From Mercenaria mercenaria (Eukaryota): a stretch of 64,000 bases of DNA. Position 1 is the stretch's first letter; each line of letters opens with the position of its first letter. Below the pieces are notes generated by a model that was given only the letters and a program-made list of their open reading frames with translations, was not told the DNA's origin and did not search any database. Below, piece by piece: positions 22,501-45,173 of this stretch. The stretch lies in assembly GCF_021730395.1 (NCBI RefSeq), contig NC_069369.1, forward strand, positions 15,475,210 through 15,539,209, in the 5' to 3' direction. The translations under genes were made by a program, and so were the position numbers.

Positions 22501-22506
22501 CATTAG

Positions 22507-24898: not shown

Positions 24899-24934
24899 GT
24901 AAGTTAGACAGACTGCTAGAACAGTCCTCATTTT

Positions 24935-25750: not shown

Positions 25751-25751
25751 G

Positions 25752-27770: not shown

Positions 27771-27833
27771 ACTAGGTACTGTAAAAATTGTTTCAAAACC
27801 ATATAAAGCAGTAAGCCAAATCTACATTTCTAG

Positions 27834-28597: not shown

Positions 28598-29321
28598 GTA
28601 AGTTAATAAGCTCTTTTGTTTGATACAGAACTTTCTGGTTCATTCATTTTGACCTTGCATGTAGTTGCATAATTATTTTGTAGGTCCTGTCATTAAAAAT
28701 AAAATTGGTGGCTGGGACATATAATGTTACCCCTGTCCCTTCGTTTGGTCTTTAATTTTTTATATGAATGGACAGATATTCAAGGTACTTGGCACAGACA
28801 TTCACCATAACTTTTATGTAAAACCTACTCCCTTAAAGGTCAAGGTCACACTTATTGATCAAAGATTTTTCTCCGTTCTATCTTGTCCAGTCTGCTCAGA
28901 TCTATCTTGTCCGGTCTGTAACTTCTGTATTTCAGTCTGTAACTTCTATTTTTGTATACATAGATATATATTCAGATAAATTGGCACAGAATTTATCATA
29001 TTAAACAAGACATGTCTCAGGTATAAGAATTAGACTCTAAGCTCATAGATCGAGGTCACACTAAAGGTCAAAATTTTGTGTCATTTTTCTTTTCGGTCAA
29101 TAACTTCTATTATTATGCTTAGAAGGATGATGAAACAACTTTTTGCAAACTTTCACCATAACTAAACCATGTGTCCTATACAAGACCCAGACCCATAGTT
29201 TTGAGGTCAAGGTTACATTTAGAATTTTTTAAGGTCATTTTTCTTTTCTCGTCCATAACTACAAGTGTTCTATTGTCAGTTTGATGCTGTAGTAACACAG
29301 ACAAAATGATTGCATTTGATT

Positions 29322-30884
29322 TTTAGCTCACCTGTCACATAGTGACAAGGTGAGCTTTTGTGATCACCCTTCGTCCGTCGTTTGTGCGTCAACAATTTCG
29401 TGTCTGCACGATAGTGGTTTCGTTTATGATTTTATTTTAACCAAACTTGCACACAACTTGTATCACCATAAGATCTCGGTTCCTTTCTTGAACTGGCTAG
29501 ATCCCATTATGGGTTCCAGAGTTATGGTCCCTGAAAGGGCCAAAATTAGCTATTTTGATCTTGTCTGCACAATAGCAGCTTTATTTAGACTTGATTGGTA
29601 CCAAATTGGCACACAACTTGTATCACCATAAGATCTTGGTTCCTTTATTGAACTGGCCAGATTCCATTATAGGTTCCAGAGTTATGGCCCCTGAAAAGGC
29701 CAAAATTAGCTATTTTGACCTTGTCTGCACAATAGCAGCTTCATTTATGATTTTATTTTAACCAAACTTGCACACAACTTGTATCACCATAAGATCTTGG
29801 TTCCTTTCTTGAACTGGCGAGATTCCAGTATTGGTTCCAGAGTTATGACCCCTGAAAGGGTCAGAATTAGCTATTTTGACCTTGTCTGCACAATAGCAGA
29901 TTCATTTATGATTTGAATTTAATCAAACTTGCACAAAACTTGTGTCACCATAAGATCTTGGTTCTTTTGTTGAACTGGCCAGATCCCATAATGGGTTCCA
30001 GAGTTATGGCCCATGAAAGGGCCAAAATTAGCTATTTTGACCTTGTCTGCACAATAGCAGCTTCATTTATGACTTGATTTTAACCAAACTTGCACACAAC
30101 TTGTATCACCACAAGATCTTGCTTCCTTTGTTGAACTGACCAGATTCCACCATGGGTTCCAGAGTTATGGCCCCTGAAAGGTCCAGAATTGGCTATTTTG
30201 GCTTTTGCAGCCATATAGAGACTTCATTTATGGTTTTATTTGATACAAACTTCCAAAATATCTTCAACAACAATAAATCTTGGATTCCATGACAAATCAG
30301 ATCCAATCATAGGTTCCAGAGTTATTTTATATCTGATTACCTCCCCTGATTGTAATCAAAATAGATTTATATCAGTAAGTACTTATAGGACTTATTTGAA
30401 ATTTCATTATTGTCATTAGTTGGACTGAGCCAATCAGGGTAGATAACTATGGACTGATTTTATGTCAAATTACCACCCTTTATTTCAAATTAAAATGGGT
30501 ATATCTCCGTAACTAAAGAAGATACTGATCTGAAATTTCATTTATGTCAACAGATTTATTTGGCAGATCCTTCTTTTGTTCACTTACAATAAAAATTTTT
30601 TTTAATTACTTCCCTTTTACATTACTATAAATAGCTTATTTTTAGTAACTTTTTTATTATTGGCCATAGGGAAAAACCGAGACCACTTTTCTGTGGTACA
30701 ATATGGATGGTACCTCCAATTTTTAGGTGTATTTTGACATATCTGTATTTTTTTTTCTTTTTGGTTAAATTTCTTCCCTTTGTTGTTACTGTCCTTTGGA
30801 TTTAGATATTTTTTCTGAGGACCTTCTTGTCCTCAAGTGCAATGATAACAGGTGAGCGATATAGGGCCATCATGGCCCTCTTGT
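29322..30884 (+). mobile_element. hairpin-headed tandem-repeat element, family C (5' TTTTAGCTCACCTGTCACATAGTGACAAGGTGAGC then CGTCCGTCG; 3' GGTGAGCGATATAGGGCCATCATGGCCCTCTTGT). Internal array about 160 bp x 5. Sits in MVP intron 7
   Basis: A 32-bp perfect palindrome at the 5' terminus. The conserved 3' terminus is at 30850-30884. Confidence 0.7.
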
Positions 30885-31149
30885 TCCATTTTAACTTCTA
30901 TTGATGCCACTCAGTGGATTTTCTTTTTCTATATGAATAATCAGATTGTCAGGGAACACAAAACTTATTTCATAGTGAATTGTCTACTTTTGATAGCAAG
31001 GTGCTTTTGACTCAAAATTGATTGATTAGAGACATTAGCTTAGAAGCGTAAAACATTCAGGCACCTATACTTTTTCTCAAAGTAATCTTAGAATATATGT
31101 CAGGCCACAAGAACCTATAAATTACTTTATGGACATTTTAACAGCATAC

Positions 31150-31600
31150 ATAGAGGATAATTGTTGGTTTCGGTGTAATATCACGTTATAATTTCACCGA
31201 GTGGGCACCAGAAGTGATATTTTCACGAGTGGCGCAGCCACGAGTGAAAATAACAACTTTTGGTGTTCACGAGTGAAATTACCGTGATATTACATCGATA
31301 CCAACAATTTTTCTTTTTTATTTTATGTCTAAAATTCTACTTTTGTTGTGTTTATTTCAATAAAATGTCAAATTTGCGGGAAATTTTATCAGGAAGCATC
31401 GCAAAGATGACGTCATTTTAACGACGTCATCGTCATATTGTTTCCGGCTTTCAGTACGCTCGGTAAACTTTTTGACATTAATCCGGGTATCAGATTTGAT
31501 AATTTTCACTGAGTGGCCAGTGAGTTTATCAGGATATAATTCACCGTTATATTTCGATAAACCACCGAAAAACATAAAATAAAATGTCATATTTCATACT
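31150..31600. repeat. composite palindromic TE-like segment. TIRs GGTTTCGGTGTAATATCACG/CGTGATATTACATCGATACCAACA (31155-31310), followed by a perfect 26-bp palindrome GATGACGTCATTTTAACGACGTCATC containing two TGACGTCA (CRE) octamers
   Basis: Inverted repeats seen directly. CRE palindrome at about 31398-31432. Confidence 0.5.
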
Positions 31601-31784
31601 ACTGGGTAGTTGTGGTTATAATCTTGCATGTAGCAGGAACTGAAGTTACAAGTTGAGATGTGGTTCATACATGTCAGTAACTTCTAAGATATTTATGAAT
31701 AAAAAACTGAAATATTTGGGGAGAGGGGCAGTAGATACAGAAATGTGGTGTATTGTTTTTAACATTATACTACCTGTACTGTAG

Positions 31785-31926
31785 GAAGTTGTGTCAGTCG
31801 AGAAGCGGGTTGTCTTGGCACAGGGTCAGTATTGTGTTGTACTTGACCCAGTGGACACAGACTTCAAGCCCCAGCTGGGCAAGCGTGAACTCAGGAAGGG
31901 CTGTTGCTCCTTTTTTCTACATCCAG
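31785..31926 (+). CDS. MVP: MVP exon 8 (EVVSVEKRVVLAQGQYCVVLDPVDTDFKPQLGKRELRKGCCSFFLHPG)
   Basis: Acceptor ctgtactgtag and donor GTTTGT. Matches EVLGVVPI..LGP..YCVILDPV...G.[21 protein letters not shown]. Confidence 0.88.
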
Positions 31927-32480
31927 GTTTGTCAGAACTCATACTATGTTATTTTATCATGTAGCATTTAGAATTTATTTAAAAAGAATCCCCATTTAAA
32001 TGCATTGCAACAGCTTCAAACTTCAAGGTAAAAGTTTTGAGAGTATAATTATCAGCTCATGGATTTTTCAATTAAAAAAGACTCTCTGAACAAAAACTGT
32101 ATTTCCTTTGTTAGGTGTAAGACGAGTATAAAATGCAGCAGGATGATGTAAAAATTCAAAGCAGCTCATCATGCAGGACAACTTGCTTTCAAAGAATTTG
32201 TCAAGTCATTCTGACCATTAAATGCAGAAGATGCATTTGGGAATAAAAAACAGCGGCTACTGTTCGTATAAAGCAGGTGGCCTTTTAATGCAGTAACATT
32301 AAAAAGGAAATTTGTCAGTGGGAATTCAAAGTGACTGTCAATAGTAGGTGACTGCTTAAGAAAGATGCCAGTTCCACTGTACCAGTTCACAGGTACACTA
32401 TTTTAAAAATAGGACAAGACAAATCACCGTACCAGTTCAAAAGTATTCTGCTAAATGTAGATAAAATCACTATATTACAG

Positions 32481-32582
32481 GTGAGCGACTAGAACAGGGT
32501 ATACAGAACAGTTTTGTTCTCTCAGAAGATGAGGCTATTGTTTTGTTGGCCACAGAGGCATTTAAAGACACAACCCAGAAGG
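32481..32582 (+). CDS. MVP: MVP exon 9 (G)ERLEQGIQNSFVLSEDEAIVLLATEAFKDTTQK(G)
   Basis: Acceptor tatattacag and donor GTAAGC. Matches EQLEQGIQDVYVLSE..GLLLRAL. Ends in phase 1. Confidence 0.85.
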
Positions 32583-33262
32583 GTAAGCTTATTTCATACT
32601 AACTTACTAAGTGTTGTCTGGTACCTGCAGTTGAATTCTGACATTTCACTGCATCCATCTACCATTGGTTAAAGCCTTCATGTGAATATACTTTGACAAT
32701 TTGCAACAGGAACAATTGTCTAAGTTCTGCTGGCAGAAATTCTACAATCATTGGTTTTACTGCGAATATCAAGCAAATTAGTATCAAATCAGTCGCAATG
32801 TTCATTGCTAGCAGCAAACATCCCTGCATATAGATATGTTTGAGGCATGTTCTCATCTTTTGACCATTTCATAAGATGAACAAGATCTTTTCAGGAAATA
32901 TTTGTTTCCCCAGAGAGTTTTTACAATCTCACATTTATAGTCCAACTGCATATGCTATGATGAAACAATAAACTGGGATAGTATTCCAATTCCTCTGAAT
33001 TACAAGAACATTCCAGAATGCCTGGTTGACCATTCTTGTTTACATACATCACACATTTTGTAGTGTCATGCAAGCAGATTGTCTTACTACTTTTGTTAAT
33101 GCTTTTAAAAAGTTTCAGTAATTAAAAGTCCTGCCATTGCTGTCTTAACTGTATTTAGATATATATATATTGATAATGCACTTGCAAAAATTAATTTTAA
33201 ACTTGAAATGTTGTGTATGTGTTTAAGGGGAAAAAGAAAGAACAAGTTCTGGTTATTTGCAG

Positions 33263-33356
33263 GCAAGAAGGTTTTACGTAAATGTGGTGAAAAATGGATG
33301 ATCAATGGACCAGTTGAGTATATTCCCCCCATTGAAGTGAATGTTATAGACAAAAG
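33263..33356 (+). CDS. MVP: MVP exon 10 (G)KKVLRKCGEKWMINGPVEYIPPIEVNVIDKR
   Basis: Acceptor ttatttgcag and donor GTAATT. Matches [26 protein letters not shown]. Confidence 0.88.
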
Positions 33357-33479
33357 GTAATTGATTCATGCTCAAACTAACTTTCAAATGCTGATGAAGT
33401 AGTTGGAGTGTTGTTGGCAGAATGCTTCTTAGGTTAAGAGTGTGATTTCTATCTTGGGACTCTGGTTCTAAGATTCCTG

Positions 33480-33860
33480 CTCTAGGAGTCAAAGGTGTGT
33501 GGTTTGCAGATTCCTCAGACTCTTAGAGATGTGGTTAGTTAAATCTTTTTGGATTTTTGGGATGTGGTTAGTTAAATCTTTCTGGATTCTTTGGGATGTG
33601 GTCAGAAGAATCCTTTCATTTCTGCTCACATATGCTTATGTTATGTTGTTAGTAGAATCCTGCTCTTAGTGTTGTAGAATATGGAAAGTAAAAGCCATGG
33701 ACTTTTAGGAATGCAGTAAGTAAACCATGAGACTCAGTACTTTAGTATGTTATTAGTAGTATCTTTCTCTTGGATTCATATGAGTGTGGTTAGTAAAATC
33801 TACCTTAGATTCTTAGGGAGTATGGCTATTATAATCCAGCTTTGATTCTGAAGAAGCATG
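33480..33860. repeat. degenerate minisatellite of about 45 bp in MVP intron 10
   Basis: Recurring TTAGAGATGTGGTTAGTTAAATCTTTTTGGATT-like units. Confidence 0.5.
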
Positions 33861-34303
33861 ACCAGTAGCATTCAGCTTGGAATCTTAATTACAAGTATAT
33901 TTACATAGTTGTGCACATTATGGTCCATTTCTTAGAGTGCAGTGAAATACCTCTTACTTGAGCATCAATGGCTTGAGCACCCAGGCCCACCAAGCAGCTA
34001 ATATTGCACCAGCTATTTTCTTTGTAACTGTCTTTTATGCTTGGATTGCCTGAGACCCCTGGATAACTGGAGCATTCTGCTCATCATCTTGCAACCTCAG
34101 GCAGATAGTGTTTACCTTACATTAGTTTATAAATTAGCAATTGCTTGATAGTTGATTTAACAAGGCATGTGTAGAATCACAATTATAGCTTCAAAAATAT
34201 GGAAAAAATATGCAGTACGTACTGCTGTTATTTTAAATAATATTTTCTTTTGCATAATGTTTCTGGTATTAAAATTAAAACAGAATACATTTACTGTTTC
34301 TAG

Positions 34304-34364
34304 GAAGCAGATACCAATGAGCAAGAATGAAGGAATTTATGTACAGGATACACAGACTGGCAGG
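34304..34364 (+). CDS. MVP: MVP exon 11 (R)KQIPMSKNEGIYVQDTQTGR
   Basis: Acceptor ctgtttctag and donor GTAACA. Matches the highly conserved ENEGIYVQDVKTGKV. Confidence 0.9.
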
Positions 34365-34401
34365 GTAACATGTATTTTCTTATTACCATTTTAACTGACT
34401 T

Positions 34402-36580
34402 TTTAGCTCACCTGTCACAAAGTGACAAGGTGAGCTTTTGTGATCGTGCGGTGTCCGTCGTCCGTGCGTGCGCCCGTCCGTAAACTTTTGCTTGTGACCA
34501 CTCTAGAGGTCACATTTTTCATGGGATCTTTATGAAAGTTGGTCAGAATGTTCATCTTGATGATATCTAGGTCAAGTTTGAAACTGGGTCACGTGCCTTC
34601 AAAAACTAGGTCAGTAGGTCTAAAAATAGAAAAACCTTGTGACCTCTCTAGAGGCCATATATTTCACAAGATCTTCATGAAAATTGGTCAGAATGTTCAC
34701 CTTGATGATATCTAGGTCAAGTTCGAAACTTGGTCACATGCCATCAAAAACTAGGTCAGTAGGTCTAAAAAACCTTGTGACCTCTCTGGAGGCCATATAT
34801 TTCAAAGATCTTCATGAAAATTGGTCAGAACGTTCATCTTGATGATATCTAGGTCAAGTTCGAAACTGGATCACGTGCCTTCAAAAACTAGGTCAGTAGG
34901 TCAAATAATAGAAAACCCTTGTGACCTCTCTAGAGGCCACATTTTTCATGGGATCTGTATGAAAATTGGTCTGAATGTTCATCTTAATGATATCTAGGTC
35001 AGTTTTGAAAGTGGATCACGTGCCTTCAAAAACTAGGTCAGTAGGTCAAATAATAGAAAAACCTTGTGACCTCTCTAAAGGCCACATTTTTCATGGGATC
35101 TGTATGAAAGTTGGTCTGAATGTTCATCTTGTTGATATCTAGGTCAAGTTCGAAACTGAGTCACGTGTGGTCAAAAACTAGGTCAGTAGGTCTAAAAATA
35201 GAAAAACCTTGTGACCTCTCTAGAGGCCATATATTTCATGAGATCTTCATGAAGATTGGTCAGACTGTTCATCTTGATGATATCTAGGTCAAGTTTGAAA
35301 GTGGGTCACGTGCCTTCAAAAACTAGGTCAGTAGATCAAATAATAGAAAAACCTTGTGACCTCTCTAGAGGCCATATTTTTCATAGGAATTGTATGAAAG
35401 TTGGTCAGAATGTTCATCTTGATGATATCTAGGTCAGTTTCGAAAGTGGGTCACGTGCCTTCAGAAACTAGGTCAGTAGGTCAAATAATAGAAAAACCTT
35501 GTGACCTCTCTAGAGGCCATATTTTTCATGGGATCTGTATGAAAGTTGGTCTGAATGTTCATCTTAATGATATCTAGGTCAATTTTGAAAGTGGGTCACG
35601 TGCCATCAAAAACTAGGTCATTAGGTCAAATAATAGAAAAACCTTGAGACCTCTCTAAAGGCCATATTTTTCATGGGATCTGTATGAAAGTTGGTCTGAA
35701 TGTTCATCTTGATGATATCTAGGTCAAGTTCGAAACAGGGTGATGTGCGGTCAAAAACTAGGTCAGTAGATCTAAAAATAGAAAAACCTTGTGACCTCTC
35801 TAGAGGCCATACTTGTGAATGGATCTCCATAAAAATTGGTCAGAATGTTCACCTTGATGATATCTAGGTCAAGTTTGAAACTGGGTCACGTGCCTTAAAA
35901 AACTAGGTCAGTAGGTCAAATGATAAAAAAACCTTGTGACCTCTCTAGAGGCCATACCTTTCATGGGATCTGTATGAAAGTTGGTCTGAATGTTCATCTT
36001 GATGATATCTAGGTCAAGTTTGAAACTGGGTCAACTGCGGTCAAAAACTAGGTCAGTAGATCTAAAATTATTAAAATCTTTTGACCTCTCTAGAGGCCAT
36101 ATTTTTTAATGGATCTTCATGAAAATTGTTCTGAATGTTCACCTTGATGATATCTAGGTCAAGTTCGAAACTGGGTCACGTGTGGTCAAAAACTAGGCCA
36201 GTAGGTATAAAAATAGAAAAACCTTGTGACCTCTTTAGAGGCCATATTTTTCATGAGATCTTCATGAAAATTAGTGAGAATGTTCACCTTGATGATATCT
36301 AGGTCAAGTTTAAAACAGGGTCACGTACCCTCGAAAACTAGGTCAATAGGTCAAATAATAGAAAAACCTTGTGACCTCTCTAGAGACCATATTTTTCAAT
36401 GGATCTTCTTGAAAATTGGTCAGAATTTTTATCTTGATAATATCTAGATCAAGTTCAAAACTGGGTCACATGAGCTCAAAAACTAGGTCACTAAGTCAAT
36501 AATAGAAAAAACGAAGTCATACTCAAAACTGGGTCATGTGGGAAGAGGTGAGCGATTCAGGACCATCATGGTCCTCTTGT
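34402..36580 (+). mobile_element. family C hairpin-headed element carrying a 165-bp x 12 satellite. Sits in MVP intron 11
   Basis: 5' TTTTAGCTCACCTGTCACAAAGTGACAAGGTGAGCTTTTGTGATCGTGCGGTGTCCGTCGTCCG. 3' GAGGTGAGCGATTCAGGACCATCATGGTCCTCTTGT at 36545-36580. Confidence 0.75.
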
Positions 36581-37094
36581 TTGTTAAAACGACTTTTTTG
36601 TGTTTTGCCCTCAGAGTGGAAAATAGTGCTTGAATTGTCCATCTGTTGGCCAGTTTGTCTGTCAATCTTTCTTTGTACTCAACTCCTCCTACAGTTTTTA
36701 TCAAATTCAAATGAAAATTGGTATACATCATCAGCATTAAATGGATATATGCATATTACGGGGAATTTAATGTCCGAGTTTTATTCTTGAGAAATGGCCT
36801 GTTTATATACTTTGAAATATTGCAACTACAATTGTACTTCTCCTACAGTTTCTAAACTTGGTATACATCGTCAACATAACAAAAATTAGGCATTGTGTAT
36901 ACCATCAGGATTTTTGTGTCTATTTTTTTGAGTTAAGCCCCTTATTGTTCCTTTGATACATCCATTATATGCATAACTGCTCTAGTTTCCATCAACAATT
37001 CAAATGGAACTTGGTATGAAGATGGCCTATGAAAGTTCCAGTGGCAAGACAGAAGGCATTCAGCAACACTGTTGAGTATATATATTCAGAACAT

Positions 37095-37849
37095 GTATTT
37101 AACTGCAGGTTAGAGCTGTGATGTTGAGTAAATTAATTTTTTAACTGCAGGTTAGAGCTGTGATGTTGAGTATATATATTTTGTATAGTCTATTTTAACT
37201 GCAGGTTAGAGCTGTGATGTTGAGTATATATATTTTGTATAGTCTATTTTAACTGCAGGTTAGAGCTATGATGTTGAGTATATATATTTTGTGTAGTCTA
37301 TTTTGACTGCAGTTTAGAGCTGTGATGTTGAGTATATATTGTTTGTATAGTCTATTTGACTTCAGGTTAGAGCTGTGATGTTGAGTATATTTATTTTGTA
37401 TAGTCTATTTTAACTGCAGGTTAGAGCTGTGATGTTGAGTATATTTATTTTGTATAATATATTTTAACTGCAGGTTAGAGCTATGATGTTGAGTATATAT
37501 ATTTTGTGTAGTCTATTTTGACTGCAGTTTAGAGCTGTGATGTTGAGTATATATTGTTTGTATAGTCTATTTGACTTCAGGTTAGAGCTGTGATGTTGAG
37601 TATATATATTTTGTATAGTCTATTTTAACTGCAGGTTAGAGCTGTGATGTTGAGTATATATATTTTGTGTAGTCTATTTTGACTGCAGGTCAGAGCTGTG
37701 ATGTTGAGTATATATTGTTTGTATAGTCTATTTGACTTCAGGTTAGAGCTGTGATGTTGAGTATATTTATTTTGTATAATATATTTTAACTGCAGGTTAG
37801 AGCTGTGATGTTGAGTATATATATTTTGTGTAGTCTATTTTGACTGCAG
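37095..37849 (+). repeat. 55-bp satellite (about 14 units, 165-bp higher-order period) whose unit contains a copy of the 3' splice site and first 17 nt of MVP exon 12. The array abuts exon 12
   Basis: The unit TAACTGCAGGTTAGAGCTGTGATGTTGAGTATATATATTTTGTATAGTCTATTT compares with the exon 12 junction GACTGCAGGTCAGAGCTGTGATGGGACC. Confidence 0.85.
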
Positions 37850-37944
37850 GTCAGAGCTGTGATGGGACCAAAGTCATACATGTTGCAGTCTCATGAACTT
37901 CTCTGGAAGAAAGAACTGGACGCTATTGTAGAAGAAATGCTTAA
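37850..37944 (+). CDS. MVP: MVP exon 12 (VRAVMGPKSYMLQSHELLWKKELDAIVEEMLK)
   Basis: Acceptor gactgcag lies at the end of a 55-bp satellite array. Donor GTATGT. Matches [23 protein letters not shown]..VEELL. Confidence 0.78.
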
Positions 37945-38758
37945 GTATGTTTAAATTATTATGGCTATTAGGGCCCTGCCTTTTCGTGAAAGCCCTACAG
38001 TAATCACTCTGTCTGTCTATTTGTGTATCCATCCATTGGTTTCCAGACATTACCTTGACCAGGCCATAACTTGAAACTGTTCTAGATATTTTTTTTTTTT
38101 TTTCAGACAATGACAAAGGACATTGAGAGGATGTGCACTCTGTGAATCATTACGCTACATTGCATAATTTTTTAATTATCTCCATTTGCTAAAAATGCTG
38201 AAGGGGAATTTATTCAAACTACATACAAAGATGGAGAACATTAAGGGAAAATTCAGTGTACAAGAACCATAACTCTACCTTGCTTACTTTTAGCTCCGCT
38301 AGTAGATCTATCCTACTCACCATTGCATTGATATCTGCTTCTGCTTCCTTTTCTTGAGAGATTCTCTCTTTTTTTGACATGTGAAAGTTGAAATCTACAT
38401 ATTCACGTCCCAAGAAGTAGCCTTTTTAACCAAAACCATAAAATTTCAAGCTCACAGAATTGAATGATTTCACTGAATTGTCAAAACTGAACTGAGAAAA
38501 TGTGGTAAAGATATCTCTGATGTCATGTAATAAAAAAATTATTGAATGGCTTTCCTATGAATTTTAAAAATGCAAGTTTATGGAAGGATTCAGTGAAAGG
38601 TGATCCTGCCATGATCTTGAGAAAATAGTTTTAAGGCTTGACCAAATAATTGACTCAGTAAGTGTTTAAATGTTTAGTTATAGTTGTGTATTTATAATAG
38701 GTTTGAGCAGACTAGATTTTGCAAGTATTGTCATGAAATGGTTTGTTCTGTATTGCAG

Positions 38759-38837
38759 ACATGGTGGAGGTTCAGGGTCAGGAGATATCAGGAAGATTGC
38801 TTATTTTGAACAGTCAATAGACCCACAGTTTCTCAAG
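38759..38837 (+). CDS. MVP: MVP exon 13 (K)HGGGSGSGDIRKIAYFEQSIDPQFLK
   Basis: Acceptor ctgtattgcag and donor GTAAGC. The frame is fixed by the flanking exons. This is a lineage-variable linker region of MVP. Confidence 0.75.
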
Positions 38838-39114
38838 GTAAGCAAAAAATTTTATGTATTGAAGAATGATAAACATAGGGCTCCCCACTAGTAAACACAC
38901 CCAGCAAAACACTCATCTGTCTTAACATTCTTTTGTTTGTAAACATGAGCTCAAACAATAAAGTAACATTCATAAAAACTAATTTATGACCAGAGTTTAA
39001 ATTTTGGCATATTTTTGCATTTTAAATAAAACATGCGTTTAGACTAAATGAAAAAATGTACCATGCCAAAAAATAGCACTTTCACCAATTTTTGTATAAA
39101 AAATGAAATACTAA

Positions 39115-41000
39115 TTATTTTTATGCTCCCCAAAGGGAGAGTATATAGTTGCTGCTTTGTCTGTCCTGTCTGTCCATCTGTCTTTCAGTCTGTCACACTT
39201 TTGTTCAGAGTATAACTTGAAAAGTATTAATGGCATTTGATTGAAACTTCACTTAATCATAGAGGTCATTGAGACAAAGTGCAGTGTCAAAGAATCATAA
39301 CTCTACCTTACCTAATTTTTGAATTATCTCCCTTTATTATACAAAATAAGGCTTGTCCGGAGCATTACTTGAAAAATATTAATGGCATTTCATTGAAACT
39401 TCACAAAATGATAGAGGCCATTGAAAATGCAGTGTCAAAGAACCATAACTCTTCTTTACTTATTTTTTGAATTCTCTCCCTTCATTATACAAAATAAGGC
39501 TTGTCCGGAGTACAACTTGAAAAGTATTAAAGGCATTTGATGGAAACTTTGCATAATCATAGAGGCTATTGAGACAAAGTGCAGTGTCAACGAATTATAA
39601 CAAGCTTTATAATGAAATTTTGTTTTTTTTAGGGTCGGGATAAGACGAGGGTTGTACAGTATAGATGCCCAGGCAACACGGCCGTCCAGGTGAACAACTA
39701 TTTGGATAAAACAGCACGGGTTGTATTTGGTCCTGACCTGGTTATCCTCGGGCCACATGAGAACTTCAGTGTTCTTAGTCTCAGTGGTAAGTTATTTATT
39801 TACACAGTCCAACATAGATGATCATATGCTGACATTCTTTCTTCTTTATTCAAGAATAAATTACAAATGCATTATGTGATTAAATATTTAAACCAATGCA
39901 TAATTTTTTAATTGATTATTTGAAAAAGCTGAGGAATTTATCAAAAATAAAAGCATGAGAACATTAAATTCAGTGTACAAGACATAACGTATTTTACTTA
40001 GGCATAATGTTTTCAATTGCATTATTCTGTGTCTGCCCCGAGTCATTCTCTCTTTTTTTACATTATTGAAATCTACTATACGGCGGTGCCTTTTTCCCTA
40101 AAGTTTCAGAAATAAAATTTCAAATTGTCAACTGAATGAGACTGTGTAAAGATTTTATAAATAAAAAATTATTGAATGGCTCTCTCTAGATTTAATAGCT
40201 ATTTTGAAGATAGAAATCTGTGTTTGAAAATTTTAGCTGATTTCTCAAATAAATGTTTGTTATAGTTGTTATTTAAGATTTGACGATAGTTGGAGTCAAT
40301 TTCATAAATTTTTCTGAGCGAGTGGAGTCTGTCAGTATCGAAATTGTTTATTTAACATGTATAGACACAGTTCCAAGGAAGAAAATTATGTATGAGATCT
40401 AACTAGGCTCCATAGTAAAAACCACAAAACTATTCTTACTTCTTTGTTGAAACATGAGCCAACATAGACATCATACTAATTTATGCCGGTTTAATTCATA
40501 TTTGCATTTTTAAAAAACATGTTTAATAAAACCAAATTACCTGCCAAATATAGTTCACTAATTCTGTAAAAAATGAAATACTATATTTTTATGCTCCCCA
40601 AAGGGAGAGTATAAGTGCTCTTGTCTGCCATCGTGTCATTTACCATTGTTACACTTTTGTTCAGAGTATAACTTGAAAATATTAAGGCATTGTTGAAACT
40701 TATTAATCTTTAGGTCAATTAACCAACGTGCATGGTCAAGTATCATAACTCTACCATAATTTTTGCAAATTATGCTCCCTTTTATTAAAAATTAGTGTTT
40801 TCCGGAAGATTACTATCTAAATACTAAGGGCATATTCAATTGAAACTTCACATATCTGATAAAACATTGATCAGTCAAAGACCATAACTCTTGACTTATT
40901 TGATTAATGCCCCCTTTATAGGACTGTCGAAATCATGGTTTAAAGTTTATAGCTGCATAATCATAGAGCTATTAACAAAGGCATTAAAGATTTAAAACTT
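39115..41000. repeat. two related TE copies (starting TTTTTATGCTCCCCAAAGGGAGAGTATA at 39115 and 40585) with internal 130-bp repeats, in MVP introns 13 and 14
   Basis: Shared 5' ends and a shared GTTCAGAGTATAACTTGAAAA(G)TATTAA(T)GGCAT body. Confidence 0.5.
39633..39786 (+). CDS. MVP: MVP exon 14 ([51 protein letters not shown])
   Basis: Acceptor ttttttttag and donor GTAAGT. Matches [49 protein letters not shown]. Confidence 0.92.
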
Positions 41001-42068
41001 TATATAATTTTTTTTTTTAGGTCGATAAGCAAGTTACTATCATGTCCCAGCCATAACCGGCATGAACATATTTGGATCCAAATTGTTTTTGCCGACCTGT
41101 TATTGGACCAAGAAAATTCTGTTCTAGTTTTGCGTCAAGTATATTACACGTAACATAAGACATATGCTTTGAACATTTTTTTCTTTTTCAAGATCAATTA
41201 CCAAATAAGCCCATATGTGATTAATTTTAACCGAAAATTTAGTGCGCCTTTTTGACAGGATTTCAAAATTAATGGTTATTTGAGTCATTCAGTCTACAGA
41301 GCATAATTAAAAGGCATATGTATTTGGACTTTGATTTTCTCATTTTTCTCAGATCATTAGCCTACCTCACTGGTTCAAGTTCCATACTTCTTACTGTAAC
41401 TGATGGGAGAAAATTAAAATGCCCTTTGGCTTAGCAATTTTGAATAAATGTTTTAATAATTACTATCCCAAAACTAATGTCATTATGTTGATTGAAACAA
41501 GTAACATGTTTTCTTCGGTGTTTCTACGAAATTGAGTTTGATAGAACATGGCCCATAAAGAATTATGGCACCTATGAACTTAAAATCTTTTGATATGTTA
41601 ACATTTTGGGTTTTCAAAAATACCGTCTGGGAAATATTGTACACCCTTACCTGCTAGACATTTGTTAAAATGAATTTGTCCATCTTTCAATTTTGACAGT
41701 ACCATTAACTGTTAAAAGGGTGCTTACCAAAAAGATACTGACTGATGGATGTGCAGGCTGATCTTTGTCTGCACTGGTCGCAAAGGCAGAATCCCTTGCC
41801 GCCAGCAGGCTAAGGTTAAGATGTCAGAAAATGCGATTTCGAGTCACTGTATTTTATATTGAAACTTCATCTGTACTGCAGCTAACGTTTACCAGTGCAT
41901 TCAGTCAGCATGATAGATTTATATTTTTCACTTAACTTTTCCCTGTAAGTATGTAGCTGATACTTTCAAAAATGAAACTTTTACATTTATAATGTTAGAT
42001 TGTATTTTACAGTTATAAAGAAATATCTTCTTAAGATCTTTACCTTTGAATGTGATGTTATATTTCAG

Positions 42069-42148
42069 CTGGAAAACCCAAAGTTTCCAATGCAATGAAA
42101 TCATTATGTCTGATGTTGGGTCCTGACTTCATTACAGATATAATAGAG
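42069..42148 (+). CDS. MVP: MVP exon 15 (A)GKPKVSNAMKSLCLMLGPDFITDIIE
   Basis: Acceptor tatttcag and donor GTATGT. Matches [28 protein letters not shown]. Confidence 0.9.
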
Positions 42149-42489
42149 GTATGTCTTTGACATACTAGCTCCAAAACTATATATAAGACTTAAGTTTGGA
42201 GGTCATTCTTAGCATACAGACTTGCCATTGGTTGAGAGTTTTGAAACTGGTCCAAAATTTAATTTTATGACCTTGAACTTATCAACAGCATGGGAGGACT
42301 GTTCTGTGCTAAATGGTGTTCGTATGCAAGAAATGTGTAGAACAAAATTTCAGGATTTTTAATCAAAGAAGGAAAATGTTATTTAAAATGTTATTTATTG
42401 ACGATGTGAAAATATGAGCATAGAGTAAGTATCACCAATCTGATTAGGCCGTTCAGACTGAAGATTATCTCTTACAAACTTTTTTTCAG

Positions 42490-42549
42490 GTTGAGACATC
42501 TGACCATGCCAGGCTGAAGTTGAAGGTTGCTTTTAACAACCATTTTGAG
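42490..42549 (+). CDS. MVP: MVP exon 16 (VETSDHARLKLKVAFNNHFE)
   Basis: Acceptor cttttttcag and donor GTAACT. Matches TADHARLQLQLAYNWHFEV. Confidence 0.9.
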
Positions 42550-42804
42550 GTAACTCTTTGACCTTTATACTGAGTACAAAGTGAATGTGAAGCTGCTTTT
42601 ATGTAGTAATAAACCAAGCAGAGCTTGAATTTGACATGCACTCACAAACTTAGTGGAAAATGATAAATGCAAGTAGTCATTCCATATGCTCACAAAATTT
42701 TGGGAGTGCAAAAAATGAACCATAACTAAGTAAAGTAGAGTTATGGTTCTCTCCAACTTTCAGTTTCTGTCTGCTGTAAATACACAGTAGACTTATTTTC
42801 CAAT

Positions 42805-44207
42805 TTTTAGCTCACCTGTCACATAGTGACAAGGTGAGCTTTTTGATCGTCAGTCCGTCCGTCGTCCATCCACAATTTCTTATGAACACGATAGAGACCA
42901 CATTTTGTAATCAATTTTAATCAAACTTGCACACAACTTGTATTGGCTTAATATCTTAGTTCCTTTCGAAAACTGGCCAGACCCCATCATGGGTTCCAGA
43001 GTAATGGCCCCTTAAAGGGCCAAAATTTGCTATTTTGGCTTTTGCAGCCATATAGAGACTTCAATTTTGGCCTGTGAACACGATAGAGACCACATTTTGC
43101 AGTTGATTTTAATAAAACTTACACACAACTTGTACTGGCATAATATCTCGGTTCCTTTTAAAAACTGGCCAGATCCCGTCATGGGTTCAAGAGTTGTGGC
43201 CCCTTAAAACGCCAAAATTTGCTATTTTGGCTTTTGCAGCCATATAGAGACTTCATTTATGGTTTGATTTGATACAAACTTGCAAAATATCTTTAACAAC
43301 AATAGATCTTGGATTCCATGATGAATCCGTCAGATCCAATCATAGGTGCCGGAGTTACGGCCCCTGATTGACCCCTGAAAGAGCAAAAAAAAAAAATTTT
43401 TACCTTGTAAACACGATAGAAGTGACATTTTACATTTGAGTTTAACCACACTTACACACAACTTAAGTCACAATAAGATCTTGGTTCCTTTTGAAAACTG
43501 GCTTGATTCCTTCATGGGTTCCTGAGTTACTGCCCCTGATAAATTTTCTATATTGGCCCTTTCAGTCATATAGAGGTTTTATTTATGCTTTGATTTGATA
43601 CAAACTTGCACAGAATGTTTATCTTGATGATCTAAACATTCTATGCAAGTTTGTATCAAATCAAAGCATAAATAAAACCTCTATATGGCTGAAAGGGCCA
43701 ATATAGAAAATTCTTGATGATCTCTAAACCATGTTTCAAACTGGGTCATGTGGGGTCAAAAACTAGGTCACCAGGTCAAATCAAAGGAAAAGCTTTAACA
43801 CCCTAGAGGCCACATATATGACCCTATCCTCATGAAACTTGGTCAGAATGTTTATCTTGATGATTCCTATGCCAGGTTCAAAACTGGGTCATATGGGGTT
43901 TAAAACTAGGTCACCTAGTAAAATGAAAGGAAAAAGCCTGTTAACTCTCTTGAGGCCACATTTGTGACCCTATCTTCATGAAACTTGGTCAGAATGTTCA
44001 TCTTGATCATTCCTAGGCCAAGTTTGAAAATGGGCCATGTGGAGTCAAAAACTAGGTCACCACTCAAATCAAAGGAAAAGCTTGTTAACACTTTAGAGAC
44101 CATATTTATGACCCTAACTTCATGAAACTTGGTCAGAATGTTTATCTTGATGATTCCAGTGCCAAGTTTAACAGATGAGCAATATAGGGTCATCATGGCC
44201 CTCTTGT
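42805..44207 (+). mobile_element. family C hairpin-headed element in MVP intron 16 (contains a 140-bp x 3 array and an internal 150-bp palindrome at 43560-43710)
   Basis: 5' TTTTTAGCTCACCTGTCACATAGTGACAAGGTGAGC. 3' CAGATGAGCAATATAGGGTCATCATGGCCCTCTTGT. Confidence 0.7.
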
Positions 44208-44226
44208 AATGACATTTTTTCTACTT

Positions 44227-45173
44227 TTTTTAGCTCACCTGAGCATGAAGTGCTCTGGGTGAGCTATTATGATCACTCACCTTTTCTTGTATATCTGCTT
44301 GGAAACCATTTTGTTGAAGTTGATGAAACTTAAACTGTGTGTATCTTTGATGTCCCTCTACCAGATTTTCAAAGCGTTCCATTCCATGTAGAATTCTGGT
44401 TGAAATGACAGGCAAAAAGAAGATAAAAATCATCATCTCTCAGACCTCAAGGCTCAGAGCTTAGATATTTGGCATGTAGCACAGTGTAGTGGTCGTCTAC
44501 CAAGTTTGATCAAGTCATGCCCCTCGTGTCAAAGTTGGCTCCACCTTGGGGTTCACTTGTTTTAAATGGATTTATATAGGAAAAACTTTAAAACTCTTCT
44601 TGTCAAAAACAATAATGTCCAGAGCTTAAATATTTTGTATGTAGCATTGTGCAGTGGTCCTCTACCAAGTTTGTTCAAATCATTCCCCTGGGGGTCAAAA
44701 TTGGCGCTGTCCTTAGGTTCGCTTGTTTTACATAAACTAATACAGGAAAAAATTAAGAACTCTTCATATCTAAAACCTCAAGCCCTTAAGGTTAGATATT
44801 TGGCATGTACCTTTATGTAGTGGCCTTTTACCAAGTTAGTTCACATCATGCCTCTGGGGTTGATATTGGCCCCACTCAGGGGTAACTTGTTTTAGGTAGA
44901 CTTGTGTAAGAAAAACTGTTGAAATCTTCTTGTCTGAAGCTGCAAGACCCAGAGCTTAGATTTTTAATATGTAGAATCGTCTAGTGGTCCTCTACCAGAT
45001 TTGTTCAAATCATGCCTCTTGCGTGAAAATTGACCCCTTCCTAGGGTTCACTTGCATTATATAGACTTATATATGTCTAAAACCTTGAGCATTAAATAGA
45101 GATCCTCTACCAAGAAATCATGTGTACCCTTTCTAGTCCGTTGAGCGATATAAAACTATCATGGCTCTCTTGT
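44227..45173 (+). mobile_element. family C variant immediately adjacent to the previous copy (5' TTTTAGCTCACCTGAGCATGAAGTGCTCTGGGTGAGC; 3' GTTGAGCGATATAAAACTATCATGGCTCTCTTGT). Internal 165 bp x 4
   Basis: A terminal hairpin of a different sequence but with the same architecture. The array spans 44440-45110. Confidence 0.6.

What the first reader, a model, noticed from the sequence alone, without database searches (positions are those of the whole stretch)
29322..45173. Family of hairpin-headed, satellite-carrying non-autonomous elements: four copies inside MVP introns (intronic copies at 29322-30884, 34402-36580, 42805-44207, 44227-45173), a fifth inverted copy downstream at 60061-61105
All copies begin with T-rich + AGCTCACCTGTCACA(T/A)AGTGACAAGGTGAGCT (a 32-bp perfect hairpin) + GC-rich CGTCCGTCG motifs. 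They end with ...GGTGAGCGAT(A/T)NAGGNCCATCATGGNCCTCTTGT. Each carries a different internal tandem array (160-170 bp units, 3-12 copies). The defined asymmetric ends and terminal hairpin are Helitron/Helentron-like. They are reminiscent of the pearl/Helentron-associated satellites described in oysters. The locus shows the same vehicle delivering different satellites into successive introns of one gene. Two copies sit back to back at 42805-45173.
Basis: partly seen in the sequence, partly recalled or inferred. Interest (0 to 1): 0.7.

Follow-up and report, generated by a model that had tools for sequence, protein, structure and literature searches.

The report
Satellite-carrying Helentron hitchhikers in clam introns
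The five repeats are real copies of a well-known kind of bivalve parasite DNA, non-autonomous rolling-circle "Helentron" elements (HINE/pearl type) that carry short satellite arrays, here sitting in the introns of the hard clam major vault protein gene; this is ordinary for a bivalve genome.

Summary
Observation confirmed, with corrections. All five copies are at the stated coordinates, and heads and tails are far above chance.

- **Host:** Mercenaria mercenaria. The MVP gene lies on the + strand at about 10582-52079.
- **Architecture:** T-run (modal T5), then a 5' subterminal repeat folded against a nearby inverted repeat, a (GTCC/GTCG)n microsatellite, a 145-192 bp tandem array, a 3' subterminal repeat, a covarying palindrome and the terminus CTCTTGT.
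- **Classification:** there are no target-site duplications. This is the published HINE architecture (DINE-1, Cg_HINE, pearl, DTC84), not a canonical Helitron and not a TIR MITE.

Corrections:
- The head is a 14-bp stem with a bulge, not a perfect hairpin, and only three copies carry the exact 32-mer.
- There are three array families (A, B, C), not five. Copy 3 is an A+B chimera.
- The window holds at least 13 such elements, not five.

The same termini occur in Ruditapes, Tegillarca, Saccostrea and Ostrea MVP genes. The 145-bp array is shared with Ruditapes and Tegillarca. The C array is homologous to oyster Cg170/HindIII.

No Rep/helicase partner was found, so mobilisation is inferred. Verdict: a new member of a known kind, of low interest.

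One unexplained aside: 18-21 of 19-22 such elements in MVP genes of six bivalves lie in the sense orientation.

The parts
29320..30884 (+). R1: complete HINE in an MVP intron. T5 29320-29324; head hairpin 29325-29356; (CGTC/CGTCG) microsatellite about 29367-29390; A-type array 29401-30252 (161 bp x 5.3); about 590 bp of degenerate sequence; 3' subTIR 30846-30857; palindrome 30863-30879; terminus CTCTTGT 30878-30884.
34400..36580 (+). R2: complete HINE starting 38 nt after the splice donor of the exon that ends at 34366. Head 34405-34436; microsatellite about 34446-34482; B-type array 34491-36510 (145 bp x 14.0); palindrome 36559-36575 with compensatory G>A / C>T changes.
42804..44207 (+). R3: chimeric HINE. 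Head 42809-42840; microsatellite about 42853-42867; A-type array 42883-43262 (192 bp x 2) plus further A monomers to about 43612; A-to-B junction at a shared AAACTTG motif; 80-nt inverted duplication 43542-43621 / 43633-43712 (98% complementary); B-type array 43712-44171 (146 bp x 3.2); tail with one G.T mismatch in the palindrome.
44225..45173 (+). R4: older, decayed HINE 24 nt downstream of R3. T7; head AGCTCACCTGAGCATGAAGTGCTCTGGGTGAGCT at 44232-44265; no microsatellite; C-type array 44458-45016 (166 bp x 3.4, 71% matches); 3' palindrome degraded.
60060..61104 (-). R5: inverted HINE downstream of MVP. Head ACCTCACCTGAGCCAAAGGCTCATGGTGAGCT at 61099-61068; long degenerate GTC-rich microsatellite; C-type array 60394-60865 (166 bp x 2.8), homologous to the oyster Cg170/HindIII family; palindrome AGGGTCAT/ATGACCCT with compensatory changes.
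24931..25778 (+). Starts 32 nt after the exon that ends at about 24898. Head AGCTCATCTGATTTTTTGAAAAAAAATGATGAGTT; (CGGCGT)n microsatellite; D-type array 25022-25703 (173 bp x 3.9); 17-nt subTIR; tail ...GTGCTCTTGT.
22510..22916 (+). X0: short X1-type copy with one interrupted monomer, inserted in an (ATT)n microsatellite. It carries a nested foreign insertion of about 195 bp at 22687-22880.
17608..18572 (-). X2: HINE in MVP intron 1, the only antisense one inside the gene. Head AGCTCGACTATTCATAGAATAGTAGAGCT; (CGGCGTCCG)n microsatellite; D-type array 17673-18488 (165 bp x 4.9); 14-nt subTIR; palindrome GCTGTC/GACAGC; terminus CTCTTGT.
13384..14525 (+). Xb: HINE in MVP intron 1. Head AGCTTGACTATTCGAAGAATAGTCTAGCT; (GGCGTC)n microsatellite; D-type array 13453-14434 (166/331 bp); shortened tail. 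An orphan tail (GCCCATTTGGGCCTCTTGT) ends at 13311.
2088..3303 (-). Xa: HINE upstream of MVP. 20-nt subTIR AGCTCGACTATTCGAAGAAT; (CGGCGT)n microsatellite; D-type array 2298-3232 (164 bp x 5.7); palindrome GCTGTC/GACAGC; terminus ATTTGT.
62943..63758 (+). Xc: HINE downstream of MVP. Head AGCTCCACTTTTCGAAGAAAAAGTAGAGCT; D-type array 63008-63683 (164 bp x 4.1); palindrome GCTGTC/GACAGC; terminus CTCTTGT.
46029..46810 (+). Y1: third HINE family. T-run; head ATGCCCCCACTTTGGTTGGGGTGCAT; GTCC-type microsatellite; array of 163-186 bp units spanning about 46100-46756; 3' subTIR GGGGGCAT; palindrome TGTGTCC/GGACACA; terminus TTTCTAGT.
39118..39612 (+). Y2: Y-type head (TTTTT ATGCTCCCCAAAGGGAGAGTAT), (GTCT/GTCC)n microsatellite and 148-bp array 39201-39601. 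No recognisable tail. It ends about 20 nt before the acceptor of the exon at 39633.

Best explanation
The five repeats are non-autonomous Helentron-type rolling-circle transposons (HINEs, the class that includes Drosophila DINE-1, oyster Cg_HINE/pearl, Donax DTC84 and Mytilus MgE). At least eight further elements in the window belong to the same class. The host is the hard clam Mercenaria mercenaria.

**Anatomy (shown).** Each element has, in order:
- a short T-run, modal length T5;
- a 10-20 nt 5' subterminal repeat (AGCTCACCTG...) that folds against an adjacent inverted repeat into a 14-bp hairpin;
- a degenerate (GTCC/GTCG/CGGCGT)n microsatellite;
- 2-14 tandem monomers of 145-192 bp, always in the same orientation relative to the ends;
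- an inverted copy of the 5' repeat ending 27 nt from the 3' end (...CAGGTGAGCG);
- a 7-8 bp palindrome;
- the terminus CTCTTGT, usually followed by T.

**Transposition (inferred from the Helitron/Helentron literature).** A Rep/helicase(/APE) protein from an autonomous Helentron elsewhere in the genome nicks one strand at the 5' end and unwinds it 5'-to-3'. It stops at the 3' subTIR-plus-palindrome signal. The single strand is then inserted into T-rich (TT) DNA without duplicating the target.

**Arrays (partly shown, partly inferred).** Arrays grow and shrink by slippage or unequal exchange. They are swapped between elements that share ends by template switching or microhomology recombination. 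R3 shows this directly: its A-to-B junction sits on a shared AAACTTG motif next to an 80-nt foldback. Terminator bypass between adjacent head-to-tail copies such as R3-R4 is another possible route.
For: **Ends.**
- Head and tail motifs are far above chance.
- The 5' end and the 3' subterminal region are inverted repeats of 10-20 nt with at most 1 mismatch. The 3' copy ends 27-28 nt from the terminus in R1-R5 and X1.
- Head hairpins fold at -11 to -13 kcal/mol, z -5 to -7. Inner stems differ between subfamilies (GTCAC/GTGAC, GAGCA/TGCTC, TGAGCC/GGCTCA, and TGAGCT/AGCTCA in Ruditapes) but stay complementary.
- The 3' palindrome is 96% paired in 8 copies, with compensatory double changes at 4 of 7 pairs. 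Only 1 of 500 shuffles reaches this, and slid registers give 18-57% paired.

**Insertion.**
- There is no TSD. The longest boundary repeat averages 2.86 nt, against 2.72 +/- 0.32 for mismatched flank pairs.
- Independent copies on metagenome contigs share the exact head. Their similarity to the window starts at the T-run, and their upstream flanks are unrelated.

**Same ends, different arrays.** The identical 32-nt head is joined to A arrays (R1, R3), B arrays (R2, L001, L005, L002, L007) and C-like arrays (L004, L006).

**Relatives in other bivalves.**
- Ruditapes carries head AGCTCACCTGAGC..., a 145-bp B array and tail ...GGGCCATCTTGGCCCTCTTGT.
- Tegillarca carries the same ends; one of its three elements carries a B array 66-70% identical over 1.5 kb.
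- Saccostrea and Ostrea carry TTTTTAGGTCACCTGAG..., and Saccostrea also a ...GGCCCTTGGGCCTCTTGT tail.
- C monomers align with C. gigas Cg170/HindIII-type CL1 monomers.

**Match to the literature.** The architecture matches the published HINE definition point by point. In Helraiser the 3' hairpin acts as terminator, can be bypassed, and only one strand is used.
Against: - No autonomous partner was seen. There is no ORF of 133 aa or more in the window. No Helitron-like domain occurs in ORFs of the fetched loci.
- No empty site, allelic or paralogous, could be examined. The exact boundaries within the T-run and at the final T are therefore not fixed, and the absence of a TSD rests on flank statistics only.
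- Copies differ by 6-35% in their ends, and monomers by 12-29%. Nothing shows current activity.
- Two of 14 copies are followed by A rather than T.
Confidence: 0.85

Rival explanations
1. They are classical cut-and-paste MITEs with inverted repeats and a 2-bp TT (AA) target-site duplication, mobilised by a DDE transposase. This is how pearl and DTC84 were first described.
For: Inverted repeats are present, and T or TT lies on both sides in most copies. The DTC84 paper read the flanking AA as a TSD.
Against: The inverted repeat is asymmetric. It is terminal at the 5' end but sits 27 nt inside the 3' end, and the true 3' terminus (CTCTTGT) has no inverted partner at the 5' end. Boundary repeats are no longer than in mismatched flank pairs. 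The 3' flank is TT in only 8 of 14 copies, and AA in two. The T-run varies from 2 to 7 nt and its modal length T5 is conserved from clams to oysters, so it behaves as part of the element. The covarying 3' palindrome fits a rolling-circle terminator.
Confidence: 0.06
2. They are non-autonomous canonical Helitrons (Helitron1 type) rather than Helentron/Helitron2 type.
For: They have asymmetric ends, a 3' hairpin and no TSD. RepeatMasker-style annotation of M. mercenaria lumps 4-5% of the genome as 'rolling circles'.
Against: The canonical hallmarks are listed: 5'-TC, 3'-CTRR, insertion between A and T, and no subterminal inverted repeats. All are absent. The ends are (T)nAGCTC... and ...CTCTTGT, the flanks are T/T, and a 5'/3' subterminal inverted repeat is present.
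Confidence: 0.04
3. They are not mobile. They are satellite arrays spread by segmental duplication or reintegration of extrachromosomal circles, and the shared 'ends' are just conserved junction sequence.
For: The arrays are satellite-like. M. mercenaria is reported to be about 10% satellite DNA.
Against: In all 14 copies examined, similarity starts at the T-run and stops at CTCTTGT, and the flanks are unrelated. The same ends accompany three unrelated arrays. The hairpins covary. Array orientation relative to the ends never varies.
Confidence: 0.03
4. They are SINE-like retroelements or other RNA-derived repeats.
For: They are short, non-coding and abundant. A tRNA-related SINE-like sequence does abut X1 at about 25790-26045.
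Against: No Rfam family or tRNA is detected inside any element. They have no poly(A) or simple-repeat 3' tail, no TSD, and structured DNA termini.
Confidence: 0.01

Closest known systems
Cg_HINE elements of Crassostrea gigas (Vojvoda Zeljko et al. 2020, PMC7492417); annotated in Repbase as Helitron-N*_CGi
   Same: The modular plan is identical: 5' subTIR plus IR, a GTCY/GTCC/GTCK microsatellite, 140-180 bp tandem repeats in fixed orientation, a 3' subTIR plus palindrome, oligo-T target and no TSD. Related flanks with unrelated arrays ('group 2') and double-array elements are both described there. The elements are dispersed in and near genes. The window's C-type monomers are homologous to the CL1/Cg170 family. 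Oyster MVP genes carry TTTTTAGGTCACCTGAG... heads, and Saccostrea a ...GGCCCTTGGGCCTCTTGT tail, very close to the clam termini.
   Different: The host is different (Mercenaria, Veneridae). The subTIR sequence differs (AGCTCACC versus AGGTCACC in the oyster copies I could read). The A and D arrays have no detected oyster counterpart. I could not compare with the published LF/RF consensus sequences because they are only in figures and an illegible table.
pearl family (Gaffney et al. 2003; C. virginica, Anadara trapezia) and DTC84 of Donax trunculus (PMC3879986)
   Same: The plan is L flank + 1-5 core repeats of about 160 bp + (ACGG)n microsatellite + R flank with short inverted repeats and AA flanks. 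Read on the other strand, this is exactly the layout found here ((CCGT)n = CGTCCGTCG, and TT flanks). pearl core repeats are related to Cg170, as the C arrays are here.
   Different: These were originally interpreted as MITEs with an AA TSD and were later re-classified as Helentron derivatives. I could not test sequence-level relatedness of the flanks, because the pearl paper is not in the library.
DINE-1 / HINE of Drosophila, mite and mosquito (Thomas et al. 2014, PMC4067079)
   Same: It has 12-15 bp subTIRs, an IR 3-22 bp from the 5' subTIR, a microsatellite, central repeats and a 3' stem-loop. It prefers TT targets. Strings of 2-5 T at the boundaries belong to the element and vary in number. 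There is no target-site modification.
   Different: There is no sequence similarity. DINE-1 has a conserved core block that is not evident here. In Drosophila the autonomous Helentron partners are known (98% identical ends); here none is identified.
Helraiser / canonical Helitrons (PMC4778049, PMC5876387)
   Same: It works alike, by inference: one-strand rolling-circle transposition, a 3' hairpin as terminator, terminator bypass that creates chimeric elements, and no TSD.
   Different: These elements are not members. They lack 5'-TC, 3'-CTRR and an A|T target, and they have subterminal inverted repeats that Helitron1 elements lack.

Membership tests
HINE (non-autonomous Helentron) | Subterminal inverted repeats of about 11-15 bp: at or near the 5' terminus, and tens of bp inside the 3' terminus | tested here: met
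   The repeats are 10-20 nt with at most 1 mismatch in 9 of 11 window copies. They are weak in R4 (7 nt) and Xc (8 nt). X0 lacks the 3' copy (only a spurious AT-rich match was found). The 3' copy ends 23-29 nt from the terminus in 9 copies, and 27-28 nt in R1-R5 and X1.
HINE (non-autonomous Helentron) | Short IR complementary to the 5' subTIR (DINE-1 type), or a palindromic subTIR | tested here: met
   The head folds into a 14-bp hairpin, dG -11 to -13.3 kcal/mol, z -5 to -7 for the R copies. The X copies give dG -7.6 and -9.6, z -2.5 and -5.7. Inner stems covary between subfamilies.
HINE (non-autonomous Helentron) | Palindrome (stem-loop) downstream of the 3' subTIR, near the 3' end | tested here: met
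   The stem is 7-8 bp. It is 96% paired across 8 copies, with 4 of 7 pairs showing compensatory changes. It is decayed in R4.
HINE (non-autonomous Helentron) | Microsatellite after the left module, followed by central tandem repeats in a fixed orientation | tested here: met
   (GTCC/GTCG)n or (CGGCGT)n precedes the array in 10 of 11 R/X copies and in both Y-type copies (R4 lacks it). All related arrays match in the 'plus' sense when read in element orientation.
HINE (non-autonomous Helentron) | Insertion in T-rich / TT sites with a variable T string at the boundary and no target-site duplication | tested here: inconclusive
   The T-run is 2-7 nt (T5 in 8 of 11 window copies). The 3' flank starts with T in 12 of 14 copies. 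Boundary repeats do not exceed the null. No empty site was available, so the exact cut points are unproven.
HINE (non-autonomous Helentron) | An autonomous partner encoding Rep/helicase (+ APE endonuclease) with the same termini | not testable with these tools
   None is present in the window or in about 400 kb of fetched loci. No eukaryotic genome collection could be searched.
[quoted passage not shown] | Identical 5' subTIR of 11 bp or more among the five reported copies | tested here: inconclusive
   R1-R3 share 15 or more identical 5' bases. R4 shares only 10, and R5 differs at base 2. Identity over the last 60 bp is 62-80%, and only the R1/R3 pair reaches 80%. So there is one family (R1-R3) and a sister lineage (R4, R5). 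R4 shares 13 nt with the Ruditapes copy.
Canonical Helitron (Helitron1) | 5'-TC and 3'-CTRR termini, insertion between A and T, and a hairpin about 11 bp from the 3' end | tested here: not met
   The ends are (T)nAGCTC... and ...CTCTTGT, and the flanks are T/T. The palindrome ends 5 nt from the terminus and overlaps the CTCTTGT motif.
TIR MITE (DDE-mobilised) | Terminal inverted repeats at both extreme ends and a fixed-length TSD | tested here: not met
   The 3' terminus has no inverted partner at the 5' terminus, and there is no TSD above chance.
pearl / Cg170-HindIII related core repeats | Core repeats of about 160-170 bp homologous to the Cg170/HindIII satellite family | tested here: met
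   This holds for R4 and R5 only. Similarity is 79-84% over 58-73 bp (E 5e-14), and conserved boxes run along the whole monomer in a pairwise alignment with C. gigas CL1. The A, B and D arrays show no such similarity.

The most novel reading that the evidence does not exclude
HINE integration, or survival, may be strand-specific with respect to the host gene. Inside the MVP genes of six bivalves, 18 confirmed (21 probable) elements lie in the sense orientation against one antisense (p about 8e-5 to 1e-5). T-runs are not enriched on the sense strand. One possible cause is that the Helentron Rep inserts its single strand into the transiently single-stranded sense strand, either as lagging-strand template of co-directional replication, as shown for bacterial IS608-type HUH transposons (recalled from memory, not checked here), or as the displaced non-template strand during transcription. 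The alternative is strong orientation-dependent selection. The resulting head-to-tail clustering would also favour terminator bypass, and hence the array swapping seen in R3.
Probability: 0.2. Interest if true: 0.6.

Novelty: new member of a known kind. Interest (0 to 1): 0.25.

Why it matters
For the finding itself, little changes. It adds hard-clam (and Ruditapes, Tegillarca) members to a class already described in oysters, Donax, Mytilus and insects. It repeats at one locus what was shown genome-wide in C. gigas: short satellite-like arrays in euchromatin ride on Helentron-derived vehicles, and the same ends can carry different arrays.

Three points are of practical use:
- M. mercenaria annotation currently splits these elements into 'rolling circles' (about 4-5% of the genome) and 'satellites' (about 10%). 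At least part of that satellite fraction may be HINE cargo (not tested genome-wide).
- The terminal consensus TTTTTAG[CG]TCACCTGA ... GGCC(C)TCTTGT is shared by Veneridae, Arcidae and Ostreidae. It gives simple anchors for finding the still unidentified autonomous partner.
- The 145-bp array travels with these ends in both heterodont and pteriomorph bivalves. That is another case of very long-lived, or horizontally moved, bivalve satellite DNA.

The sense-orientation bias, if general, would be the first hint that eukaryotic Helentrons choose a strand.

Tried and rejected
- **Viral contig scan for the head:** 0 hits.
- **Allelic or second-assembly copy of the Mercenaria MVP locus, for empty sites:** XP_053406855.1 is not on record. 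The Mya arenaria MVP is not on record either.
- **Cg_HINE LF/RF consensus sequences:** Table S2 is illegible and the array file is cut within CL1. I could not make a direct comparison with the published flanks or with CL6 (147 bp).
- **Autonomous partner:** no ORF of 133 aa or more in the window. ORFs in L003 and L006 are uninformative. Long ORFs in all loci are repeat translations or carry SET, zf-MYND or zf-RVT domains, none Helitron-like.
- **Generic strand-symmetric detector (T-run + hairpin of 6 bp or more + A-free GC-rich stretch):** too many false positives to use for the orientation count. I used array-anchored and motif-anchored calls instead.
- **Genes flanking MVP in the window, to orient Xa, R5 and Xc:** Pfam on candidate exon peptides and tblastx against the Saccostrea, Ostrea and Ruditapes flanks gave nothing usable.
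- **T-run availability as an explanation for the orientation bias:** rejected. There are 94 T5+ runs against 116 A5+ runs on the sense strand.
- **R3 chimera formed by read-through from one element into the next:** not supported. There is no internal tail or head remnant at the A/B junction, which lies on a 7-nt microhomology beside a foldback.
- **Large arrays in the Argopecten MVP gene and the 51-, 54- and 59-bp arrays in the window:** these are not HINE cargo.

Full report
**1. What is in the sequence**

The 32-nt head AGCTCACCTGTCACAWAGTGACAAGGTGAGCT occurs exactly at 29325, 34405 and 42809 on the + strand, with none expected in shuffles. A relaxed 12-mer (TTAGCTCACCTG, up to 1 mismatch) also finds 44230 (+) and 61101 (-). 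It finds two further sites at 22510 and 24934 as well. The tail CATCATGGNCCTCTTGT ends at 30884, 36580, 44207 and 45173 (+) and at 60060 (-).

Tandem Repeats Finder gives these internal arrays:
- 29401-30252: 161 bp x 5.3
- 34491-36510: 145 bp x 14.0
- 42883-43262: 192 bp x 2.0
- 43712-44171: 146 bp x 3.2
- 44458-45016: 166 bp x 3.4
- 60394-60865: 166 bp x 2.8

The host gene is a major vault protein gene on the + strand, from about 10582 to 52079. Its exon cores are 100% identical to Mercenaria mercenaria XP_053406855.1. The window is therefore hard-clam DNA. Four copies are intronic and the fifth lies downstream, inverted.

**2. Corrections to the description**

The head is not a perfect 32-bp hairpin. 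As single-stranded DNA it forms 9 + 5 bp with a one-base bulge and a 3-nt loop, at -13.2 kcal/mol and z about -6 to -7. Copies 4 and 5 have other inner stems (GAGCA/TGCTC and TGAGCC/GGCTCA) that are still complementary. Copy 4 has no GC-rich microsatellite, and its 3' hairpin has decayed.

The arrays fall into three families rather than five:
- A: copy 1 and the first array of copy 3, 74% identical.
- B: copy 2 and the second array of copy 3, 75% identical.
- C: copies 4 and 5, 73% identical.

A, B and C show no similarity to each other.

Copy 3 is a chimera. Its A part joins its B part at a shared AAACTTG motif. An 80-nt inverted duplication, 98% complementary, sits right there at 43542-43621 / 43633-43712.

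**3. The family is larger than reported**

Reading the flanks of the other arrays of about 165 bp shows the same plan with other hairpin sequences. The elements are X0 (22510-22916), X1 (24931-25778), Xb (13384-14525) and Xc (62943-63758) on +, and X2 (17608-18572) and Xa (2088-3303) on -. A third type, Y, has TTTTT-ATGC-hairpin-GCAT heads. It occurs at 39118-39612 and 46029-46810. All X arrays are mutually 65-69% similar, apart from X0's single interrupted monomer (97% identical to X1), and all lie in the same orientation relative to their ends.

The common plan is:
1. a T-run, which is T5 in 8 of 11 copies;
2. AGCTC-stem-loop-stem-GAGCT;
3. a (GTCC/GTCG/CGGCGT)n microsatellite;
4. the tandem array;
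5. an inverted copy of the 5' end that finishes ...GAGCG;
6. a 6-8 bp palindrome;
7. the terminus CTCTTGT.

The 5' end and the 3' subterminal segment are inverted repeats of 10-20 nt with at most one mismatch in 9 of 11 copies. The 3' copy ends 27-28 nt from the terminus in R1-R5 and X1.

**4. Evidence that the structures matter**

I aligned eight tails: R1-R5, two metagenome copies and the Ruditapes copy. The 7-bp palindrome is 96% paired. Four of its seven pairs show compensatory double changes, for example GGGCC/GGCCC, GGACC/GGTCC and GGGTC/GACCC. Only 1 of 500 column shuffles reaches this, and slid registers give 18-57% paired. The head hairpins behave the same way across subfamilies. One asymmetry is constant: the head inverted repeat ends GAGCT, whereas the tail copy ends GAGCG in 7 of 11 copies.

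**5. Evidence for transposition rather than duplication**

The exact head occurs on seven unrelated metagenome contigs, always after 2-7 T. Similarity to the window begins at the T-run (window 34399-34400), and nothing upstream aligns.

Across 14 complete copies, the longest direct repeat at the boundaries averages 2.86 nt. Mismatched flank pairs give 2.72 +/- 0.32. So there is no target-site duplication. The 3' neighbour is T in 12 of 14 copies.

There is no ORF of 133 aa or more in the window. No Rfam family or tRNA lies inside the elements.

**6. Same ends, different cargo**

The identical 32-nt head is joined to A arrays (R1, R3), to B arrays (R2, and metagenome copies L001 and L005 at 92-95%, L002 and L007 at about 71-74%), and to C-like arrays (L004, L006).

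By the family rule of Thomas et al. (at least 11 identical subTIR bases; subfamily at least 80% over the last 60 bp), R1-R3 are one family. R4 and R5 form a sister lineage.

**7. Comparison with what is known**

Thomas et al. 2014 define HINEs by these features:
- 12-15 bp subTIRs;
- an IR near the 5' subTIR, or a palindromic subTIR;
- a 3' stem-loop;
- frequent microsatellite and tandem repeats;
- a TT target;
- boundary T strings of variable number that belong to the element;
- no target modification.

Vojvoda Zeljko et al. 2020 describe 11 Cg_HINE elements in C. gigas with exactly this plan. Those have GTCY/GTCC/GTCK microsatellites and 138-181 bp monomers in fixed orientation. Some have related flanks with unrelated arrays ('group 2'), and some carry two consecutive arrays. 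They also insert in or near genes.

DTC84 and pearl have L + core repeats + (ACGG)n + R with AA flanks. That is the same layout read on the other strand. The canonical Helitron hallmarks (5'-TC, 3'-CTRR, A|T target) are absent here.

The M. mercenaria genome paper reports only bulk classes: rolling circles at 4-5% and satellites at about 10%. I found no description of these families for this species.

**8. Direct sequence links to other bivalves**

- **Ruditapes philippinarum.** In its MVP gene (L008), the intron after the exon orthologous to window 24652-24906 carries an element at 11021-11949. It has head AGCTCACCTGAGC..., a GTCC microsatellite, a 145-bp x 5.6 array 68-72% identical to the B arrays, and tail ...AGCGATCTAGGGCCATCTTGGCCCTCTTGT.
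- **Tegillarca granosa.** Its MVP gene has three elements with TTTTTAGCTCACCTGA... heads. Two have ...GGCC(C)TCTTGT tails; the third ends ...GGGCCTCTTCT. One carries a 145-bp x 11.5 array 66-70% identical to the B arrays over 1.5 kb.
- **Saccostrea and Ostrea.** Their MVP genes have TTTTTAGGTCACCTGAG... heads, and Saccostrea has a ...GGCCCTTGGGCCTCTTGT tail.
- **C. gigas.** The C monomers of R4 and R5 align along their length with CL1 (Cg170/HindIII family) monomers. The shared boxes include AAGTTTTACATAG and TTTAAAAATCTTCTT.

So the clam R elements belong to an old, bivalve-wide HINE lineage that includes the oyster elements.

**9. Mechanism**

Shown: the anatomy, the structural covariation, the dispersal to unrelated sites without a TSD, and the exchange of arrays between elements with the same ends.

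Inferred from Helraiser work and from the Helentron literature:
- mobilisation in trans by a Rep/helicase(/endonuclease);
- one-strand transfer that starts at the 5' end and stops at the 3' subTIR-plus-palindrome;
- integration in TT.

Array swapping in R3 looks like template switching or microhomology recombination, not read-through. The head-to-tail pair R3-R4, 24 nt apart, is the kind of arrangement from which terminator bypass could make compound elements.

Not shown: an autonomous partner, empty sites, or current activity.

**10. Aside: orientation**

Inside the Mercenaria MVP gene, 9 of 10 elements are sense-oriented. Strand-symmetric searches in the MVP loci of seven other bivalves returned 16 head or tail hits, all on the gene strand.

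With array-anchored calls and exon maps, the count of elements is 18 confirmed in-gene sense, plus 3 probable, against 1 antisense. The two-sided p-values are 7.6e-5 and 1.1e-5. T5 runs are not commoner on the sense strand (94 versus 116). I found no report of such a bias in the papers I could search.

Caveats: this is one gene family, a post-hoc test, and some copies may be local duplicates. It is worth a genome-wide test.

**11. Verdict**

The elements are Helentron-type HINEs, a class already well described in bivalves. That makes this a new member of a known kind, of low interest in itself.

Noticed in passing
window 10582-52079; L008, L010-L013 (MVP loci of Ruditapes, Ostrea, Tegillarca, Argopecten, Saccostrea): There is a strong sense-orientation bias of HINE-like elements inside MVP genes. 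Mercenaria has 9 sense and 1 antisense. Across six species there are 18 confirmed (21 probable) sense against 1 antisense, p about 8e-5 to 1e-5. This is not explained by T-run availability (94 T5+ versus 116 A5+ on the sense strand). No report was found in the searchable literature.
   Followed up: partly
window 37139-37864: A 54-bp unit is repeated about 13.5 times directly upstream of the exon that starts at 37850. Each unit copies the 3' splice acceptor and the first 15 nt of that exon (TTTTAACTGCAG|GTTAGAGCTGTGATG). That makes about 13 decoy acceptor and mini-exon copies in frame length (15 nt). Similar exon-edge tandem arrays flank exons in the Argopecten MVP gene (L012 16613-22743, 22880-28448, 43043-48238).
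   Followed up: no
window 24931 and 34400; L008 11021: HINEs sit 24-38 nt downstream of splice donors. X1 lies 32 nt after the exon ending at about 24898. R2 lies 38 nt after the exon ending at 34366. In Ruditapes a different subfamily sits 24 nt after the orthologous exon of the same intron as X1. These look like independent hits in the same small T-rich spot. Y2 (39118-39612) ends about 20 nt before an acceptor.
   Followed up: partly
L011 34522-36360 (Tegillarca) versus window 34491-36510 and L008 11097-11908: The 145-bp B satellite, together with the same element ends, is shared by an ark clam (Pteriomorphia) and venerid clams (Heterodonta) at 66-70% identity over 1.5 kb. This is either very old conservation or horizontal spread.
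   Followed up: partly
window 22687-22880 inside X0 (22510-22916); (ATT)n at 22475-22505: X0 is inserted in an (ATT)n microsatellite. Its single monomer is itself split by a GC-rich insertion of about 195 bp, flanked by CCCTG on both sides. This may be another small mobile element.
   Followed up: no
window about 25790-26045: A sequence with a tRNA-like B box (GGTTCGAGCC) and an A-rich 3' end directly abuts the 3' end of X1. It looks like a SINE. A tRNA-Thr(GGT)-like sequence is called at 9068-9140 (-).
   Followed up: no
window 43542-43712: An 80-nt inverted duplication, 98% complementary with an 11-nt spacer, lies at the junction between the two array types of R3. It is much younger than the arrays around it, which suggests a recent foldback or template-switch event.
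   Followed up: partly
L001 531-1559 (-): A metagenome contig with an R2-type element has an intact 343-aa ORF with a SET domain (E 1e-22). The ORF lies about 265 nt upstream of the element head, in the same orientation. It is probably a host gene, but SET-domain ORFs are reported in some proto-Helentrons.
   Followed up: no
window 26700-26968 and 27130-27744: Two further short-unit tandem arrays (59 bp x 4.6; 51 bp x 12.3) lie in the intron upstream of the exon at 27832. They are unrelated to the HINE arrays.
   Followed up: no
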